This document shows positions 22,447-29,379 of a stretch of 55,401 nt of DNA, one piece after another. The translations under genes were made by a program, and so were the position numbers. The notes under the pieces are model-generated. The model worked only from the letters and a program-made list of their open reading frames with translations. It had not been told where the DNA came from and made no database searches. The stretch is from a virus (Duplodnaviria; Caudoviricetes). Every line of letters starts with the position of its first letter. Position 1 is the first letter of the stretch. The stretch is taken from positions 1 through 55,401 of the IMG/VR virus record IMGVR_UViG_3300009503_000039; one strand, 5' to 3'.

Positions 22447-25400
22447 ATGTTTATAAAATATGGTACTTTAGAAATTATTGATTCATCTGGGGACTTAGAA
22501 GAGATTGTAGATATAAATGGTATTGGTCATATTGTTGAGGAAAAGAAAGGACCATGGCTTTATTGCCGTGCAAGAGCTTTGACTTGTGATAAGCCAAATG
22601 GAAATAGAGATATATTTCCTAAAGATGAAGTAAAGAAAGCTTATCAATCATTTATAGGTAGAGGTGTTTATCTTAATCACAATAGCGGAAAAGTAGAGAA
22701 TGCGATAGGAAAAATTATAGATGCTTATTTTGTTGATACAGATCCAAATGATGTTCATGTAGAGTGTTTATTTAAGATTAATAAGGAAATGTTTCCTGAT
22801 ATTTGTAAGAGGATTCAGAATGGATTAATGTCAGCGGTAAGCATGGGGTGTATTATTCAAAGGTCGGAGTGTGTTTTACCTACGACTAATGTTTATACAC
22901 TTGATGGATGGAAACAAATAAAAGATATTAGAGTAGGTGAACAAGTATTAACTCATACCGGAAAGTTTAGAAGAGTATTAGCAACTAGTAGGAGGAGTGC
23001 TCCGGAAAAACTAATAAGGATTAGATATAAAATAGCTAATGATGATAAACATATTGGAACGTTAATTTTAACTGATAATCATCCAGTATTAACTGAAAGA
23101 GGATGGATTAAAGCTATTGATTTAGAATCTACAGACAAAATTTCTATAATGGCAAAAAATGGTTATGAATTTAAATTTGTTGATTTAGTTGGTATAGAAG
23201 TATTAGATAATATTCATCCAAATAGAGATAGAGTTAGTGGTGCTTCAGCGTTTACTGTTGTATGTAATTTACAAGTTGAGAAAGATGAATCATATATTGC
23301 TGAGGGAGTTGTAGTTCATAATTGTCAAATCTGCGGAAATATTGCAAGAAATCCTAGTGAATATTGTGAACATCTTGCAAGGTATAGAGGGCAGAAATTC
23401 AATGTTAAAAGGGATGAAAATGGTAAGTATATAGAAGCGGTATTAGATCCAAACGGGCAGGAAGAGGCCAACGAGATCAGCCATGATATTACTTATACTG
23501 AGTTATCGATTGTAGATGCTCCCGCTGATCCTACAGCAGAGATTAAAACGATATGGGCAAGTATAGATGAGAAATTCAGGAAAATGGCAATGTTATTAAC
23601 AGATGAGATCAATAAAAAGATAGATAGTAAGTTTGATGAGTTAGTGAAAACGATGAGTAGTAATAATAGTTTAGATTCTAAGGAGGTTAAAAATATGGTT
23701 GAAGCTAAGAAAAAAGATGAACCAGATATTGGTGTACAAGTAACACCAGAAGCGAAAGAAAAACCAACATTCAAAACAGACGATAAAGATATACCAGCAG
23801 ATATTAGTGTACAGGTAACGCCAGAGGCAAAAGAAAAGCCTAAAGTTGAGAAAACAGATGAGGATGTAATTGGAGTTCAAGAGGAAACGAAAACAGCAGA
23901 AGCGAAAGATGTAGATTTAGATTTAGGTAGAGGAGTAGGTGGTTCCGGAAGAAGAGGTAATCCTAAAACCGATGAAGAAAGAGCAGAAACTCATGGAGTA
24001 TCAGTAGAAGATTTACCTCCAAGAGGAACTGGATTAGGAAAAGGAAAAGGAATTAAAGATGAAGATAAGGAATCTAAAACAGTAGAAGAAAAAGAATCTG
24101 AAACTGAAGTAAATGAAATTTTAAAAGATGTTAGAAAAAAAATAGAGAAAGTATTTGAAGAGGCTTTAAAGAAAACAAAGTCAATGGTGATCTATAAGAT
24201 ATTTAAGAGTGCGGTTCGTTCAAATATTCTTGAACTAAATGAAGAATTAGAAGAAAATGAGGTAGAAGAAATAGTAAATAAAGTAGAAGAAACTGCGGTG
24301 GCAGAAGCTACTGAAGATGCGATGCAAGAATTGAATGTTAAAATTGCCGCTGATGTTGAAGAAGAAAAACCTAAAATAGATGTTCGTTTAGATATTAAAA
24401 GGGATAATTTAGAAGATGAATATATAGTTAGTGAAGATGGTAAAGACGTTATGTCAAGTACTGTAAAAGATGTATTTGGAAAATCAGCTATTCAAAACAT
24501 AGCTTATGCTATAAGTCCAGAATACTTACAGTTATTAAAAACAGCTGCTCAAGAATATGGTAAAGATGCGATTTTAGCAATTTGGGCTGCATCAGAAGAT
24601 AGTGATGCACTGAGCAAAGCAAAAAAATATTTTACTAAGGCATATCCTGACAAAAAATATGTAATTGAATGGATTAAGAAACACAAAGAAAAAGTACAGA
24701 AACCAAGTAATGTGAAGCTTGAGATGACTAAAGTAGCTGATGTTACATCTTCTAATGTAGAAGGACAAACATTACCTTTAGAACAATCTGAAGTTTCTTC
24801 AGAACCAGTAGAAGAATTTACAACACAGCAAATTGAGGAATTTGAAAATGTGACTCATAATTTAATAGAAGGTTTAAGTGATGAGGAATTAGATATAGCT
24901 ACAGATTTTATAGCTGAAGAACTTTCAACAGAAACTAAGCGATATAAACCTGAAGGGCTTGTAAAATTAGCTTCTGTATGTCCTTCTTGTTTTAAAAATA
25001 TGTTAGAAGCCGCTAAAGAGGCAGCTAGAAAAGGTAGAACAATGTCAGAAGCAGCAAAGAAAGGATTATGGAAGAAATTCAAAGGTTCAAAAAAGAAATG
25101 TATAGAATCAATGGAAGGTAAAGTAAGTAATCCAGCAGCATATTGTAGATGGCTGGAAGGTGAAGTAACAGGGGAATATGGTCCTACTCGAACAAAGCCG
25201 GGGAAAAAGAAAGTATGTGAACAAGAAGGAGAAATCAAAGAAGCAGCTTCAAATGAAAAGGGAACATCATATGTAAAAGCAGAACGACCCGGGGAATTCT
25301 TACCAGATGTAGATCTTAGTAAAGAAACTAAACGAGTTCTTTCTGGTGATAAAGGAGAATTAAAAGGAAATAAGTTTGTAGAACCAGAGGGTGGTTCAAA

Positions 25401-25941
25401 ACCTGAGCCTCAATCTATGGAAAAAGCAAAAGGCTCAGATTTACAGGGTGTTGATTATATAGAACCAGAGGGTGGAACAAAAATACAAAGTTCTATTGAA
25501 TCAGACGAATCAAAGAGATTAAAAGAAGAAAATGAGATGTTAAAAAATCAATTAGCTGCGGAACAGGCTAAAAGAGTTTTAGAAAATAAAGTTGCTCGTT
25601 GTAAAGACATTGCTACAAAGATGGCATATAAAGGATTGATAGTTCCTGATGATGCTGAAGTAAAAGATATCCTATTAAAAAGAGCAACGGAAAAAATCAG
25701 TGTTATTGATGCAAATAAAGAATCTTTCAAAAACCAGATTGAGAGACAAATATCAGATTTGATGGCTATGGACGATCATACTTTAGATGCATTTGAAAAA
25801 ACAATCGATAGAATACCTGATAAAAAGACACAAAAGATAGCTATTCTTCAAGATGGAGCAAAACAGCGGCCAGAAGATAATGAATTTTATATTCCGTTTA
25901 CAGTGAATAAGGAAGCATTGAAAAGGTTTGGAGGTAAATAA
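22447..25941 (+). CDS. Prohead maturation protease fused to a scaffold region, intein-containing
   Basis: PNGNRDIF, LNHN, IGKIIDA, SAVSMGC, ELSIVDAPADPTA; long acidic coiled-coil C-terminus; located before the capsid genes. Confidence 0.88.
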   Translation: MFIKYGTLEIIDSSGDLEEIVDINGIGHIVEEKKGPWLYCRARALTCDKPNGNRDIFPKDEVKKAYQSFIGRGVYLNHNSGKVENAIGKIIDAYFVDTDPNDVHVECLFKINKEMFPDICKRIQNGLMSAVSMGCIIQRSECVLPTTNVYTLDGWKQIKDIRVGEQVLTHTGKFRRVLATSRRSAPEKLIRIRYKIANDDKHIGTLILTDNHPVLTERGWIKAIDLESTDKISIMAKNGYEFKFVDLVGIEVLDNIHPNRDRVSGASAFTVVCNLQVEKDESYIAEGVVVHNCQICGNIARNPSEYCEHLARYRGQKFNVKRDENGKYIEAVLDPNGQEEANEISHDITYTELSIVDAPADPTAEIKTIWASIDEKFRKMAMLLTDEINKKIDSKFDELVKTMSSNNSLDSKEVKNMVEAKKKDEPDIGVQVTPEAKEKPTFKTDDKDIPADISVQVTPEAKEKPKVEKTDEDVIGVQEETKTAEAKDVDLDLGRGVGGSGRRGNPKTDEERAETHGVSVEDLPPRGTGLGKGKGIKDEDKESKTVEEKESETEVNEILKDVRKKIEKVFEEALKKTKSMVIYKIFKSAVRSNILELNEELEENEVEEIVNKVEETAVAEATEDAMQELNVKIAADVEEEKPKIDVRLDIKRDNLEDEYIVSEDGKDVMSSTVKDVFGKSAIQNIAYAISPEYLQLLKTAAQEYGKDAILAIWAASEDSDALSKAKKYFTKAYPDKKYVIEWIKKHKEKVQKPSNVKLEMTKVADVTSSNVEGQTLPLEQSEVSSEPVEEFTTQQIEEFENVTHNLIEGLSDEELDIATDFIAEELSTETKRYKPEGLVKLASVCPSCFKNMLEAAKEAARKGRTMSEAAKKGLWKKFKGSKKKCIESMEGKVSNPAAYCRWLEGEVTGEYGPTRTKPGKKKVCEQEGEIKEAASNEKGTSYVKAERPGEFLPDVDLSKETKRVLSGDKGELKGNKFVEPEGGSKPEPQSMEKAKGSDLQGVDYIEPEGGTKIQSSIESDESKRLKEENEMLKNQLAAEQAKRVLENKVARCKDIATKMAYKGLIVPDDAEVKDILLKRATEKISVIDANKESFKNQIERQISDLMAMDDHTLDAFEKTIDRIPDKKTQKIAILQDGAKQRPEDNEFYIPFTVNKEALKRFGGK
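22870..23322 (+). mobile_element. Mini-intein (151 aa, no endonuclease domain)
   Basis: Block A CVLPTTNV, block B LTDNHPVL, blocks F/G VCNLQVEKDESYIAEGVVVHN followed by +1 Cys. Confidence 0.93.
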
Positions 25942-26122
25942 AGTTAGAAAACTTGATGTTTAATCAAGTAAAGTAATACTATATGTTAATAGTTAAAAAT
26001 CTAAGAAAGATGTATAGTTCTTAGAGAACAGTTAAAGTATAAGTAAAAGGAAAGCTTAGTAGCTTTCAGATGTAGAAAGTAAGATTTTACTATTAAACAT
26101 AGACTTAAATAGGGAGTAGAAA

Positions 26123-26566
26123 ATGGCTCTCAAAGTTGTTAAGGAAGTTAATAGGTTACAAGGCTTGAAAGTTGCTCCTGGATTGACAATTTGTGCAGGT
26201 CAAGTTGCTAAACTGTTATCTACCGATACTGCTGGGGAAACCGCAACAGTAGGTAACACAGGTCCATATATAGGGCTATTTATGGACACTAATATCTCAA
26301 CAGGACTTGGACTGAATCAGCGTGATGAAACATCAGGTTCTGGTCTGGTTTCTGTTATGACAAATGGTGGTTATGTTTTAGTCTGGAATGATGGACGCGG
26401 TTCTCCTTATGTTACTACAGATACGTATACAATCGGCGCTGCATTGTATAGTGACGAAAACGGTAGAATAACTACATCAGGTTCAGGTACTACCAACTTG
26501 GTTGGATATTGCACAAAAGTCCCAGCAAGTGCAACAGATAGTCTTGGAATTAAACTCGTAGTTTAG
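26123..26566 (+). CDS. Capsid decoration/cement protein
   Basis: 147 aa, G/T-rich; DETSGSGLVSV, Y.IGAALYSDENGRIT; immediately upstream of the major capsid gene. Confidence 0.75.
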   Translation: MALKVVKEVNRLQGLKVAPGLTICAGQVAKLLSTDTAGETATVGNTGPYIGLFMDTNISTGLGLNQRDETSGSGLVSVMTNGGYVLVWNDGRGSPYVTTDTYTIGAALYSDENGRITTSGSGTTNLVGYCTKVPASATDSLGIKLVV

Positions 26567-26638
26567 CGAGAAAATAGTAATTAGTAATAAAAAGATCTAA
26601 AATATGATCGAAAAATAATTGTTCTTTGAAAGAAAAAC

Positions 26639-28443
26639 ATGGAGACTCAAATTGATCCTAGAGTACTAGATCAAAAGCTCGAAGCTTTAATGAGTACTCC
26701 AGGTGGATGGAACAAGATCGCTCAGCAGATAAATTGAAAAATTGTGTCTGAGATTATGGTGACATAATCATGGAATGTGACTATATCAGTCAAAGTCCTA
26801 CGAGATAGCATCAAGAGGATCAGACTGAGGAAAGATTAGAAACTAATTATAGTTTCAGTATCCCCAGAGACTATACGTCACACATCTCGGTAATGAGATG
26901 AAGATATAGTCCGGTCTGCATAGTAATATGCAGAGTTAAGCAGAAATGACTTAACTTCTAGAAATTTTTAAAAATTTCTAGAATAACAAAAACGGCAATC
27001 TCCCATCAAATATGACTTGCTTTATGAAGGGAGAGCTCGTCAGATTTTCAGAGTTCACACCCTTGCACAGGGAGAACCTGCAATCTTTGATCGAGATATT
27101 CGTGTTCCATCATATAAGCTTTCCAAAAGAGGTCTGCCTCCAGAACTTTATATCGAATCTGACAGGATAGAGGTAAATACATTCGAAATTGCAACTGTTC
27201 CTAAGATTCGTTATGAGGAACTGGTTTACAGGCGATTTGACGTATTGAACAGGGCTTTAGCATAGCTTGGGCCCTCTCGTCAGCAATGACGATGTACAAA
27301 ACTTTACTATATGCAAAGACGTCCTTATTTTAATAAGGATAATTTGCAGGAAAGATTATTTTATGAAGATACAATGTAAAGAAGAAGAAAATTGGTTAAT
27401 ATCAGAATATAAGAAAGTCGGTTATGATTACTTAATTATTTAGGTAAGAGGTATAAAGCATAGTAAAAGATAAGATTTTAAACTTCATAAAATAAAATCC
27501 TCAGAGACTATACGTAAAGCTCCTATATTGTTATATAGGATGAAGACATAGTCCGAACTATAGGTATATATAAAGCTATAGAGTTAAGCAGAAATGACTT
27601 AACTATTTATAATATAACTTATTATAAATATAACACTATCGCAAGAACGTGCTAAATCTCAGATAATGGAGATTGAAGATACTGAGATGCTTAGGATTCT
27701 TGATGTCGCTTCAACTGCGGTAAATAGTGCAGTTGTAGAATCAAGTTCTGATGGAAAGCTTACACTTGACTCATTAGGTCTAGCTTTTGCAGCAATTGAA
27801 TCTAGACGTTTGGTTCCAGTTACAATACTTATGCATCCTTTTCATTTGAGAGATCTTAGAACATTTAACATTCAGTCAACTGGGTCTAAAGTGTTCGATG
27901 AGATCACTCTCTATGAAGTATTGAAAACTGGAAAAGTAGGAACAATTTGGAATGCTCAGGTTTTGACCAGTCCACTAGTTAATCCTGCAAAGATATATGT
28001 CTTAAATTAAAACGCTAGGACATGTAAAATCTGACTATATCGGTGGAACTCCTACGAGATAACATCAAGAGGACAATACCGAGGAAAGATTAGAAACTAA
28101 TTATAGTTTCAATATCCGTAGAGACTATACGTCAGACATCTCAGTAATGAGATGAAGATATAGTCCGATCTGCATAGTAATATGCAGAGTTAGACAGAAA
28201 TGGTCTAACACGTCTTTAAAATAGACGATTAACAAAAATGGTGCTGCTCCTGAATTTGTGGGAGTTATGCCTATAAGGATAGACGTAACAGTGAAACCAT
28301 TCGACAATGTCGAGAAACTTTATGTTACTTTCAGCTGCTTTGAGAATGTTGGATTTTGCGTAGTTTTTTCTCATGGCATTGTTCAGATTGCTTTCACAGG
28401 TACTCCTTCTGGTGGATGGCCTAGCTACGGTCCAACTGGTTAA
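26639..28443 (+). CDS. Major capsid protein, join(26639..26730,26995..27256,27642..28002,28241..28443), 305 aa
   Basis: Exons of 92+262+361+203 nt total 918 nt, in frame; junctions KIAQQ-M-QSPIKYDL, VLNRA-QERAKSQI, KIYV-C-AAPEFVGVMP; position after protease and decoration genes. Confidence 0.9.
26731..26994 (+). ncRNA. Group I intron 1 (264 nt)
   Basis: Exon ends in U, intron in G; P1 CAGAU/GUCUG; P10 AUUGU/GCAAU; CAGAGACTA and GAAGATATAGTCC core; P3 GTGAC/GTCAC. Confidence 0.92.
27257..27641 (+). ncRNA. Group I intron 2 (385 nt)
   Basis: P1 AGGGCU/GGCCCU; P10 CUUG/CAAG; CAGAGACTA and GAAGACATAGTCC; P3 CTTTAC/GTAAAG; terminal G. Confidence 0.92.
28003..28240 (+). ncRNA. Group I intron 3 (238 nt)
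   Basis: P1 AUAUGUCU/GGACAUGU; TAGAGACTA and GAAGATATAGTCC; P3 CTGAC/GTCAG; ends AACAAAAATG, like intron 1 (AACAAAAACG). Shifting both sites by 1 nt also keeps the frame. Confidence 0.9.
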
Positions 28444-28593
28444 ATTCAGCATTCTGATTGTTTCATTGGTTTAAAAGCTAGAACATAAGAGGGAGAGTGG
28501 CCAGAGGACACTCTCCCAATACGTGTAATCCAACGTTAAGGTTAATGCAGATAAGAAGAATGTCTGCAAGTAAACCTTAAATCGGAGGTTTAA

Positions 28594-29379
28594 ATGAAGA
28601 AATATTTTTCAAATGTTCAGGGAGTTTTGACGATTGCGGATTTGATATTTACAGATCCAGTTACCAGAGAGCAAAGAATATTATTATTAAAACCTGGAGA
28701 ATCTATTCCAAATACTGTTCCGACTGAGGAAATAGAACGTTCAGCAAAAAGCGGAGTTTTAAAAGTTTTATTAGAAAAAGGAATGATAGTAGAAAAAGAA
28801 GTTCAAGAAACACCTACTATTCAATCTAAAGAAGAAACTCCAGAGGCAATAATTTCTTCAGGCGGAACTTTAACAGCAACAGAAATTCCAAAACAAGAAA
28901 AAGTGGTATTGCAAGGTGAAAAAGTTATAGAAGGATCAGATGTTCAAATTAAATATGGGTATTTAAGCCCTTCTTCTAAAGAGGGAAAGAAAATTGCAGA
29001 AAAAATAGAAGAGATAGAAAAACAGAGAATTAAAAGTGAACCTGAAGTTGAAACAGAAGAAAATGAAGCTTCTGAAGCTGAACCTACGGCAGAAGCAACA
29101 GGATATTTAACTCCTGATAGTGAAAGAAAGAAGTCAAAAGAAGATGAATTTGATTCTATATTAGGTTTAAAGAGTGAAAAAAAAGAATCTAAAGTAAAGG
29201 AAGAAAAAACAATATCGCTCGAGGAATTTAGAACATTGAAGTTATTTCCTCAATATAGCGTAATAGCTCATTGTAATAATGTAGACTTTTTGAAACAGAT
29301 AGCGGATGATGAAAGTTTACGAGAAGAAATTCGAAAAAGAGCAAGAAATAGAATAAAGAGAATTAGTAATGTCGAATAA
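28594..29379 (+). CDS. Acidic hypothetical protein downstream of the capsid gene
   Basis: GGAGG RBS; C-terminal ~50 aa paralogous to ORF 30668. Confidence 0.75.
   Translation: MKKYFSNVQGVLTIADLIFTDPVTREQRILLLKPGESIPNTVPTEEIERSAKSGVLKVLLEKGMIVEKEVQETPTIQSKEETPEAIISSGGTLTATEIPKQEKVVLQGEKVIEGSDVQIKYGYLSPSSKEGKKIAEKIEEIEKQRIKSEPEVETEENEASEAEPTAEATGYLTPDSERKKSKEDEFDSILGLKSEKKESKVKEEKTISLEEFRTLKLFPQYSVIAHCNNVDFLKQIADDESLREEIRKRARNRIKRISNVE

What the first reader, a model, noticed from the sequence alone, without database searches (positions are those of the whole stretch)
26731..28240. Introns 1 and 3 are close paralogues retargeted to different sites in the same gene
Seen: shared blocks (CCTACGAGATA.CATCAAGAGGA; GAGGAAAGATTAGAAACTAATTATAGTTTCA; TAATGAGATGAAGATATAGTCCG.TCTGCATAGTAATATGCAGAGTTA) with compensatory changes (P3 GTGAC/GTCAC versus CTGAC/GTCAG; GTTAAG/CTTAAC versus GTTAGAC/GTCTAAC), but entirely different P1/IGS. 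Inference: intron spread to a new site without an endonuclease, by reverse splicing or by core exchange/gene conversion between introns.
Basis: partly seen in the sequence, partly recalled or inferred. Interest (0 to 1): 0.7.

Follow-up and report, generated by a model that had tools for sequence, protein, structure and literature searches.

The report
Twin self-splicing introns in capsid gene
Two of the three self-splicing introns that interrupt this uncultured phage's major head protein gene are near-copies of one ribozyme carrying different guide sequences, a tighter example of something already known from phage Twort.

Summary
The window is a 55-kb viral contig. Its major head protein gene (26639-28443, four exons, 305 aa when spliced) holds three group I introns: 26731-26994, 27257-27641 and 28003-28240. 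Introns 1 and 3 are 88.5% identical over a 182-nt gap-free core (P3 to P9.1). Five base pairs are changed on both sides, all still pair, and none is broken. Their guide sequences and target sites share nothing. They are each other's nearest relatives among about 150 related introns sampled and form a clade (support 84/92.7). So "paralogues retargeted to different sites" holds.

The mechanism is not settled. Reverse splicing by the present guides is not supported. "Without an endonuclease" is not shown: a sister intron in a relative carries an endonuclease gene exactly where introns 1 and 3 are unalike (P9.2), intron 2 keeps an endonuclease remnant, and the sites lie in conserved codons. I favour recombination that swaps ribozyme bodies and guides among co-resident introns of one family.

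Similar twin introns recur in capsid genes of other uncultured phages. Twort orf142 introns 2 and 3 are the published precedent (70.8% identical). No RNA data were available, so splicing is inferred. This is a new member of a known kind, of moderate interest.

The parts
26639..26730 (+). Exon 1 of the major head protein gene (30 codons + 2 nt)
   Evidence: ATG at 26639. It ends at a U that pairs with G in P1. IAQQ|M matches IAQRM of the intronless homologue L123.
26731..26994 (+). Intron 1, group I, 264 nt, no ORF. P1 guide is GUCUG; the P2 hairpin (26752-26769) has a GUGA loop; the core is 26774-26955; the P9.2 hairpin is 26956-26983; the tail TAACAAAAACG ends in the terminal G at 26994.
   Evidence: RF00028 73.9 bits. 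Folds of P1, P2 and P9.2 are. No ORF of 30 aa or more on the sense strand inside it.
26995..27256 (+). Exon 2
   Evidence: Matches phrog_2522 major head protein, profile positions 67-153, E 6.3e-11. It tiles L123 residues 34-120.
27257..27641 (+). Intron 2, group I, 385 nt. It is a different sub-lineage, with a P2 (GCAA loop) and a 110-nt insert in P6 that holds a decayed endonuclease gene remnant (27393-27464).
   Evidence: RF00028 34.2 bits, E 2.5e-6, below the gathering score. An intron at the same site in L125 (LNRT|QERAK) has an intact 267-aa ORF. The remnant is 58% identical over 24 aa to the end of that ORF, E 5e-4.
27642..28002 (+). Exon 3 (120 codons + 1 nt)
   Evidence: Matches phrog_2522 profile positions 154-265, E 1.5e-15. 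It tiles L123 residues 121-240.
28003..28240 (+). Intron 3, group I, 238 nt, no ORF. P1 guide is AGGACAU; there is no P2; the core is 28028-28209; the P9.2 hairpin is 28211-28227; the tail TAACAAAAATG ends in the terminal G at 28240.
   Evidence: RF00028 85.3 bits.
28241..28443 (+). Exon 4, including the stop codon. The junction codon T|GT encodes Cys.
   Evidence: Matches phrog_2522 profile positions 267-315. YV-C-AAPEFVG matches VFVCGSPEFLG of P0006 and YVMAAPELVG of L123. The spliced ORF is 918 nt and has no internal stop.

Best explanation
Introns 1 and 3 are sister copies of one compact, ORF-less group I ribozyme. Both are still kept foldable by selection.

Each copy is aimed at its own conserved codon of the major head protein gene by its own internal guide. 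In intron 1, GUCUG pairs with exon CAGAU. In intron 3, AGGACAU pairs with exon AUGUCU. Removing both introns, together with intron 2, restores a 305-aa capsid reading frame. The splicing itself is inferred, not observed.

The two copies belong to a family of small introns that lives mainly in capsid genes of uncultured phages and often has its nearest relative in the same gene.

I think the pair most likely arose at the DNA level, by recombination among co-resident family introns, so that one ribozyme body (P3 to P9.1) came to sit on two different site-specific ends (guide with or without P2, and P9.2). The sites themselves were first colonised by endonuclease-driven homing.

Intron 3 keeps the family's usual sequence. 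Intron 1 is the derived copy.
For: What it is:
- Rfam matches of 73.9 and 85.3 bits.
- P1 folds place U-G at both 5' splice sites, and both introns end in G.
- The exons tile an intronless homologue (L123) and the phrog_2522 profile without gap or overlap.
- The core has 21 substitutions in 182 columns; 5 pairs changed on both sides and none is broken, random P about 1e-4.

Sister status:
- Introns 1 and 3 score 235 bits against each other. The best of the 118 loci then held scored 93 bits. No locus fetched later scored higher; the best was 96 bits.
- They form a clade with support 84/92.7 among 34 family introns.

The family and its habit:
- A covariance model of the core finds 77 + 75 + 28 matches.
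- The hosts I checked are capsid proteins: L061, L012, L018, L078 and L047 by Pfam, and L125, L112 and L134 by tblastn.
- For 18 of 30 introns in multi-intron loci the nearest neighbour lies in the same locus, against 2.06 expected under shuffled labels.

Recombination of modules:
- The guides differ at every position, so a stepwise change would pass through non-splicing forms of a gene that is presumably indispensable (inference).
- Intron 1 has a P2 hairpin; intron 3 and the relatives L125 C and D have none.
- The P9.2 stems are unrelated.
- An otherwise unrelated HNH-bearing intron in an RNA polymerase gene of a 314-kb phage contig (L122) shares 43 of 45 nt of P4-P5 with intron 3. Intron 1 shares only 36 of 45.

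Homing at the sites:
- Seven insertion sites of this capsid family lie in conserved segments, P 0.002.
- Intron 2 keeps an endonuclease remnant.

Polarity:
- Of the 21 differences, intron 3 keeps the outgroup-majority base at 14, intron 1 at 4, and 3 are ambiguous.
Against: - No RNA data exist, so splicing is inferred.
- Body swapping needs an earlier resident intron at the recipient site, and none was found at site 1 or site 3 in any relative.
- The first 10 and last 11 bases of the two introns are also alike. This fits a copy of the whole intron better than a swap of the core alone, although the tail is conserved across the family.
- The 21 differences are spread evenly, with no long identical tract that would mark a recent conversion.
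- Clade support (84/92.7) is moderate. In a first tree on 141 conserved columns the pair was not resolved at 80% or more.
- The nearest-neighbour count is confounded by shared base composition and by related phages in the sample.
- Only about 37% of this genome is in hand, so an endonuclease acting in trans cannot be excluded.
Confidence: 0.5

Rival explanations
1. Copy of the whole intron to a second site at the DNA level, helped by a homing endonuclease that the ancestor carried in P9.2. The endonuclease gene was later lost from both copies and the guide was replaced.
For: - L125 intron C, in the sister clade, has a 238-aa Vsr/DUF559-like ORF between P9.1 and the conserved tail.
- P9.2 is the one internal segment where introns 1 and 3 are unrelated.
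- The sites lie in conserved codons.
- The intron ends are also alike.
- Intron 2 shows that endonuclease genes decay in this gene.
Against: - A copy landing at a new site with the old guide could not form P1. Intron 3's guide pairs with only the final U of site 1 (read by eye). In a gene that is presumably indispensable, such a copy should be lost.
- The two 40-nt targets share nothing that one endonuclease could recognise.
- No endonuclease gene related to those of the relatives is present in the 55 kb in hand.
Confidence: 0.25
2. Reverse splicing of the excised intron RNA into the capsid mRNA at a new site, followed by reverse transcription and recombination into the genome.
For: - Both copies lack an ORF.
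- Homology reaches both intron ends.
- Related introns at different sites of one gene are the usual circumstantial argument for this route (Hausner et al. 2014, PMC3984707, passages read).
Against: - The route requires 4-6 nt of the new 5' exon to fit the guide. GCAGAU and AUGUCU share only the last U, and the guides differ throughout.
- With about 11% core divergence, a 5-7 nt guide would be expected to differ at no more than about one base.
- I did not look for a reverse transcriptase in the window.
- The bias of sites towards conserved codons is not predicted.
Confidence: 0.1
3. The pair did not arise in this genome. Each intron was acquired separately by homing from other phages that already carried site-specific members of the family, and the likeness reflects an older duplication elsewhere.
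For: Intron turnover is fast.
- L123 has none, while its close relative L125 (86-90% identical capsid protein) has at least 4.
- The record of L134 has 7 model matches in and around its capsid gene, at mostly other sites.
- Apart from site 2, no site is shared between the window and its relatives.
Against: - No same-site intron was found for site 1 or site 3. The searches were two exact-block scans of IMG/VR, protein-guided scans and exon 3 against 1.84 billion representatives.
- The two introns are each other's nearest relatives, and the same holds for pairs in several other genes.
Confidence: 0.12
4. Artefact: the likeness comes from a chimeric assembly across a repeat, or merely from shared structural constraint.
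For: Independent Logan contigs of two runs break at the shared 31-mer (26828-26856 and 28082-28110), so the repeat is hard to assemble.
Against: - The assembled order gives a complete four-exon capsid frame.
- In each intron the P3 strands, which lie on opposite sides of the repeat, match each other: GUGAC/GUCAC and CUGAC/GUCAG.
- Shared peripheral elements (the P5 extension and P6a) are not conserved in the family.
Confidence: 0.03

Closest known systems
Staphylococcus phage Twort orf142 introns 2 and 3 (Landthaler & Shub 1999; that paper is not held, so it is cited through PMC10136302 and PMC11878797, passages read)
   Same: [quoted passage not shown] The gene was later called a tail tube protein gene (PMC11878797). 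That the Twort introns lack ORFs is recalled, not checked here.
   Different: - Twort I2 and I3 are 70.8% identical over 281 aligned columns, against 89.7% over 175 ungapped nt here.
- They are separated by a 23-nt exon and show exon skipping. Here 1,008 nt lie between the twins, made up of two exons and another intron.
- There is no blastn similarity between the Twort introns and the window's introns.
- The host gene here is the major head protein gene.
Capsid genes with several group I introns in crAss-like (Zeta, Delta) and Jug phages
   Same: Uncultured phages have core genes, including the MCP gene, split by several group I introns. One Zeta MCP is in five fragments (Yutin et al. 2021, PMC7886860, passages read). 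Jug phages carry 18.5 introns per genome on average (PMC12880540, passages read).
   Different: In the passages I read, those reports count introns and name host genes. They do not describe sister introns within one gene or compare guides. Their supplementary tables were not open to me.
Related rDNA group I introns at different sites (the circumstantial case for reverse splicing)
   Same: Related introns occupy two different positions of one gene (Hausner et al. 2014, PMC3984707).
   Different: Here the host is a protein-coding phage gene, the targets do not share a guide-complementary motif, and family members carry endonuclease genes.
Homing-endonuclease gain, decay and loss in mobile introns
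   Same: Intron 2 has a decayed endonuclease gene, whereas its same-site relative in L125 has an intact one. Intronless alleles exist (L123).
   Different: Introns 1 and 3 show no trace of an ORF, so their place in such a cycle is inferred from L125 intron C only.

Membership tests
Group I self-splicing intron (Rfam RF00028) | Match to the covariance model at or above the gathering score | tested here: met
   Intron 3 scores 85.3 bits and intron 1 scores 73.9 bits against a cut-off of 50. Intron 2 scores only 34.2 bits.
Group I self-splicing intron (Rfam RF00028) | The 5' splice site follows a U that pairs with G in P1, formed with an internal guide; the intron ends in G | tested here: met
   The folds of 26724-26773 and 27995-28027 give P1 with U-G at 26730 and 28002. 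G is at 26994 and 28240.
Group I self-splicing intron (Rfam RF00028) | Conserved core helices P3-P9 supported by covariation | tested here: met
   Across four family members, 21 of 50 predicted pairs show a change on both sides that keeps the pair. Between introns 1 and 3, 5 pairs changed on both sides and none is broken.
Group I self-splicing intron (Rfam RF00028) | Removal restores the host reading frame | tested here: met
   The ORF is 918 nt and encodes 305 aa. The exons tile L123 and phrog_2522.
Group I self-splicing intron (Rfam RF00028) | GTP-dependent self-splicing activity | not testable with these tools
   No RNA run holds the stretch.
Group I subgroup IA2 (the usual phage type) | P7.1/P7.2 between P3' and P8 | tested here: inconclusive
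   By eye, P8 follows P3' directly in both introns, so there is no room for P7.1/P7.2. No subgroup models were available, so the subgroup is left unassigned.
Twort-type twin introns in one phage gene | Two or more similar ORF-less group I introns at different sites of one gene | tested here: met
   The Twort pair measured here is 70.8% identical.
Twort-type twin introns in one phage gene | Exon skipping by cooperation of the twins | not testable with these tools
   There are no RNA data. By reading the frame, an exon 1-exon 4 join would be out of frame.
Spread by reverse splicing | Old and new 5' exon ends fit the same guide (4-6 nt) | tested here: not met
   GCAGAU versus AUGUCU. The guides are GUCUG and AGGACAU.
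Mobile intron with its own homing endonuclease | Endonuclease ORF inside the intron | tested here: not met
   There is no sense ORF of 30 aa or more inside intron 1 or intron 3. tblastn with 8 intron ORFs from relatives finds only the remnant in intron 2.

The most novel reading that the evidence does not exclude
Capsid genes of uncultured phages may host a dedicated family of compact group I introns that multiplies inside a gene by swapping one ribozyme body onto different guide ends. That would be a natural form of ribozyme retargeting.

The sister copies may then be driven apart by compensatory changes in P3, P4 and P9.1 so that the two ribozymes in one transcript do not mis-pair and skip the exons between them.

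The uneven divergence (14 derived changes in intron 1, 4 in intron 3) and the recurrence of same-gene sister pairs (18 of 30) are compatible with this reading. The second part is weakly supported, because only 1 of the 5 or 6 P3 pairs differs.
Probability: 0.2. Interest if true: 0.7.

Novelty: new member of a known kind. Interest (0 to 1): 0.45.

Why it matters
How group I introns reach new sites is an old open question. [quoted passage not shown]

This locus gives a clean natural pair. The ribozyme body is the same, the guides are entirely different, and there is an intronless allele in a relative (L123). A sister pair with and without an endonuclease gene exists in another relative (L125 introns C and D). 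Together these make body/guide swapping directly testable at the bench.

The wider pattern is useful for annotation. Capsid genes of several Pfam families carry from 2 to at least 9 matches to the core model, and an intron's nearest relative often lies in the same gene. Gene callers split such genes into fragments.

The pattern also suggests that capsid genes are a preferred home of one intron lineage.

Tried and rejected
**RNA evidence.** No RNA holder was listed. Laying the Logan contigs of the two DNA runs showed no intronless joint. It showed only contig breaks at the shared 31-mer and pieces of other organisms' introns.

**Searches that found nothing close.**
- Blastn of 26000-29000 against 50,697 phage records gave no match.
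- A protein-guided scan of IMG/VR with exon 3 alone gave 0 confirmed relatives.
A three-row alignment was used instead.
- The exact 31-mer of P6 has 0 hits in IMG/VR.
- The P7-P9 pattern gave 12 viral hits and 10 genome hits. All 10 genome hits are in Patescibacteria MAGs and none is closer than the twins are to each other.

**Gene conversion between introns 1 and 2.** I considered this because they share an identical 23-nt P9.1. I rejected it because the same 23-mer is 100% identical in L100 and is the majority state in the family.

**L112 as a same-site intron for site 1.** Rejected: its intron lies 10 nt downstream, at P36|I37.

**L134 as a same-site intron.** Rejected: sites 1 and 3, and the site of L125 intron D, are uninterrupted there.

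**First tree.** On 141 conserved columns the pair was not resolved at 80% or more. A tree on 163 columns and 34 rows gave 84/92.7.

**Selection against cross-pairing of the twins.** This is kept only as the novel case, because the differences in long-range helices are few.

**Landthaler & Shub 1999 (PMC22036).** The paper is not held.

**Earlier findings of this scan.** None were on record for this genome.
Full report
**1. The locus**

The window is a single IMG/VR virus record of 55,401 nt with 29.8% G+C. CheckV estimates it as 37% complete. Two DNA runs labelled hot springs metagenome hold the stretch, and these may be its own source.

Rfam finds two group I introns above the gathering score: 26721-26933 at 73.9 bits and 27952-28187 at 85.3 bits. 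A permissive search adds a third at 27248-27574, at 34.2 bits and E 2.5e-6. These three are the only matches in the record.

I set the boundaries by three criteria: the U-G pair in P1, the terminal G, and the reading frame. This gives:
- exons 26639-26730, 26995-27256, 27642-28002 and 28241-28443;
- introns of 264, 385 and 238 nt;
- a spliced ORF of 918 nt, or 305 aa.

Exons 2, 3 and 4 match PHROG 2522 (major head protein) at profile positions 67-153, 154-265 and 267-315, with no gap or overlap. A syntenic relative, L123 (IMGVR_UViG_3300029288_000189), has an uninterrupted 307-aa homologue. It reads IAQRMQSP, LNRTQERAK and YVMAAPELVG across the three junctions.

The neighbouring genes fit a head module. 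The ORF just upstream of the capsid gene is a cement protein. Upstream of that lies a protease-scaffold fusion.

**2. The observation**

- Introns 1 and 3 align at 89.7% over 175 ungapped nt.
- Over the 182-column core from P3 to P9.1 there are 21 substitutions and no indel.
- 11 of the 21 fall in six base pairs. Five pairs changed on both sides and all still pair: one in P3, two in P4 and two in P9.1. One is a G-U/A-U change. None is broken.
- About 1 in 10,000 random placements gives as many double-hit pairs.

Both copies have therefore been kept foldable since they diverged.

The ends differ:
- Intron 1 pairs exon CAGAU with GUCUG and has a P2 hairpin with a GUGA loop.
- Intron 3 pairs exon AUGUCU with AGGACAU and has no P2.
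- The P9.2 hairpins have unrelated stems.

The first 10 and the last 11 bases are nevertheless alike.

An assembly artefact is unlikely. Logan contigs do break at the shared 31-mer. But the P3 strands, which lie on opposite sides of that repeat, are complementary within each intron as assembled.

**3. Are they each other's closest relatives?**

I then added 22 loci that hold a P7-P9 pattern.
- By blastn the best outside hit scores 96 bits, against 235 bits between the twins.
- A covariance model was built from introns 1 and 3 and L125 introns C and D. It finds 77, 75 and 28 matches in three searches.
- In a tree of 34 family members on 163 columns, introns 1 and 3 form a clade with support 84/92.7, and L125 C and D form one with 97/99.
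- A first tree on 141 conserved columns left the window pair unresolved at 80%.

No same-site intron was found.
- Site 3 is uninterrupted in 6 of 6 homologues that cover it: L123, L125, L134, L112, P0016 and P0006.
- Site 1 is uninterrupted in 3 of 3 DNA loci that cover it: L123, L112 and the record of L134. L112 has a LAGLIDADG-type intron 10 nt downstream; that label is read from the ORF sequence and was not run against Pfam.

Only 3 proteins at E 1e-10 or better, one of them the window's own, were found among 1.84 billion representatives.

**4. Context that changes the reading**

*(a) Intron turnover in this capsid family is fast and the sites are many.*
- L125 is a 3.3-kb metagenome contig whose capsid exons are 86-90% identical to L123. 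It has at least four introns.
  - One is cut at the contig end.
  - One sits at the window's site 2 and carries an intact 267-aa ORF.
  - One sits at EIE|DEEGF and carries a 238-aa Vsr/DUF559-like ORF placed between P9.1 and the conserved tail.
  - One ORF-less intron sits at KMG|KIW.
- The record of L134 has seven model matches in and around its capsid gene.
- P0003 and P0016 imply another site.
- The seven mapped sites lie in conserved protein segments. The mean window score is 1.89 against 0.88, P 0.002. For the window's three sites alone, P is 0.016.

*(b) Intron 2 is a decayed homing intron.* It is the same-site relative of L125's ORF-bearing intron and keeps 24 codons of that ORF's end, at 58% identity and E 5e-4.

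*(c) L125 C and D are sister introns at different sites, like the window's twins.* They differ by 27 substitutions, with 9 pairs changed on both sides. One has the endonuclease gene and the other has a short hairpin in its place.

*(d) The pattern is general.*
- The hosts of the best-scoring matches that I checked are capsid proteins of several Pfam families: Phage_capsid, Phage_capsid_4 and, below Pfam's cut-off, SU10_MCP.
- L047 has at least 9 model matches within 4 kb.
- After dropping three duplicate loci (L088, L048, L110), 18 of 30 introns in multi-intron loci have their nearest neighbour in the same locus, against 2.06 under shuffled labels. Shared base composition and related phages in the sample inflate this figure.

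*(e) Modules move.* An HNH-bearing intron in an RNA-polymerase-like gene of a 314-kb contig (L122) shares 43 of 45 nt of P4-P5 with intron 3. Intron 1 shares only 36 of 45. Elsewhere the L122 intron is unrelated.

*(f) Polarity.* Of the 21 differences, intron 3 keeps the outgroup-majority base at 14, intron 1 at 4, and 3 are ambiguous. Intron 1 is therefore the derived copy.

**5. Mechanism**

The splicing mechanism is the standard group I pathway and is inferred from sequence and structure only.

For the origin I weigh four routes.
- **Reverse splicing by the present guides does not fit.** The 5' exon ends GCAGAU and AUGUCU share only the final U. The 40-nt targets are no more alike than shuffles (P 0.91). 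With 11% core divergence a 5-7-nt guide should hardly have changed.
- **A DNA-level copy of the whole intron meets the same obstacle.** The copy could not form P1 at the new site, and the gene is presumably indispensable.
- **Recombination that places one ribozyme body on ends already fitted to a site avoids this obstacle.** It also accounts for the P2 difference, the unrelated P9.2 stems and the mosaic seen in L122. It needs a resident intron at the recipient site, which homing into conserved codons could have supplied.
- **Separate acquisition from unsampled phages cannot be excluded.**

I give about 0.5 to the recombination reading, within a 0.9 confidence that the two are retargeted paralogues. 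I give 0.25 to endonuclease-assisted whole-intron copying followed by loss of the gene from P9.2, 0.1 to reverse splicing, and about 0.12 to separate acquisition.

**6. Comparison with what is known**

- **Twort.** Orf142 has three group I introns, and introns 2 and 3 are described as highly similar and able to skip the 23-nt exon between them (PMC10136302, passages). The gene was later called a tail tube protein gene (PMC11878797, passages). I located the three introns in the Twort genome and measured introns 2 and 3 at 70.8% identity over 281 columns. They have no detectable similarity to the window's introns.
- **Multi-intron capsid genes.** These are reported for crAss-like phages (PMC7886860, passages). 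Intron-rich genomes are reported for Jug phages (PMC12880540, passages).
- **Reverse splicing.** Its circumstantial status is taken from PMC3984707 (passages).
- **Sister introns with different guides inside capsid genes.** Searches listed no paper with such a title or abstract.

**7. Verdict**

The mechanism is open, with reverse splicing disfavoured and 'no endonuclease' unproven. This is a new and unusually tight member of a known kind, set within a recurrent pattern that deserves a systematic survey. Interest 0.45.

Noticed in passing
window 22447-25941 (+), insert about 22870-23322: The 1164-aa protease-scaffold fusion two genes upstream of the capsid gene (a cement-protein ORF lies between them) carries a roughly 151-aa insert. 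The insert starts with Cys142, ends in His-Asn, and is followed by Cys293. It gives weak Hint-domain hits (PT-HINT E 1.5e-4, Hint_2, Vint), all below Pfam's cut-offs. It looks like a mini-intein without an endonuclease domain.
   Followed up: partly
L047:1152-5069 (-), IMGVR_UViG_3300037067_001909: A capsid gene has at least 9 matches to the intron core model within 4 kb, plus two Vsr/DUF559-like ORFs. It lies downstream of a protease-scaffold gene, and one exon gives a weak SU10_MCP-like hit below Pfam's cut-off. Several of its introns are each other's nearest relatives.
   Followed up: partly
L125:1-3278 (metagenome contig Ga0210051_1040340): At least four group I introns lie in 3.3 kb of a capsid gene that is 86-90% identical in protein to the intronless L123. 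Introns C and D are sister copies at different sites. C has a 238-aa endonuclease ORF in the P9.2 position and D has a hairpin there.
   Followed up: yes
L122:3599-4500 (+), IMGVR_UViG_3300044712_000810 (314,837 nt): A group I intron with an HNH-type ORF splits an RNA polymerase beta'-like gene of a jumbo-phage contig. Both labels are read from the ORF sequences and were not run against Pfam. Its P4-P5 is 43 of 45 nt identical to the window's intron 3, while the rest of the intron is unrelated.
   Followed up: partly
L139-L148 (genome contigs): All 10 genome hits to the P7-P9 pattern TAGTCCGNNCTGCAYAGYAATRTGCAG are in Patescibacteria (CPR) MAGs. Some score 70-108 bits with the capsid-intron model. 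I did not determine their host genes.
   Followed up: no
window 26934-26955, 27582-27603, 28188-28209; also L125, L100, L134: The P9.1 hairpin has an invariant loop CAGAAATG in every family member examined, while its stem covaries freely. This suggests a tertiary contact. The partner was not identified.
   Followed up: no
L121:4480-5065 compared with L107:806-1320 and L018:9732-10238: In a group of related high-G+C phages, the second capsid intron sits at different sites. In L107 and L018 it lies before KKTELG. In L121 it lies within NFMR..NLG, a stretch that is continuous in L018 and L107. In L121 and L107 its nearest relative is the first intron of the same gene.
   Followed up: partly
window 26828-26856 and 28082-28110: Logan contigs of both DNA runs end or begin at the 31-mer shared by introns 1 and 3. 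Short-read assemblies of such genes are therefore prone to fragmentation.
   Followed up: yes
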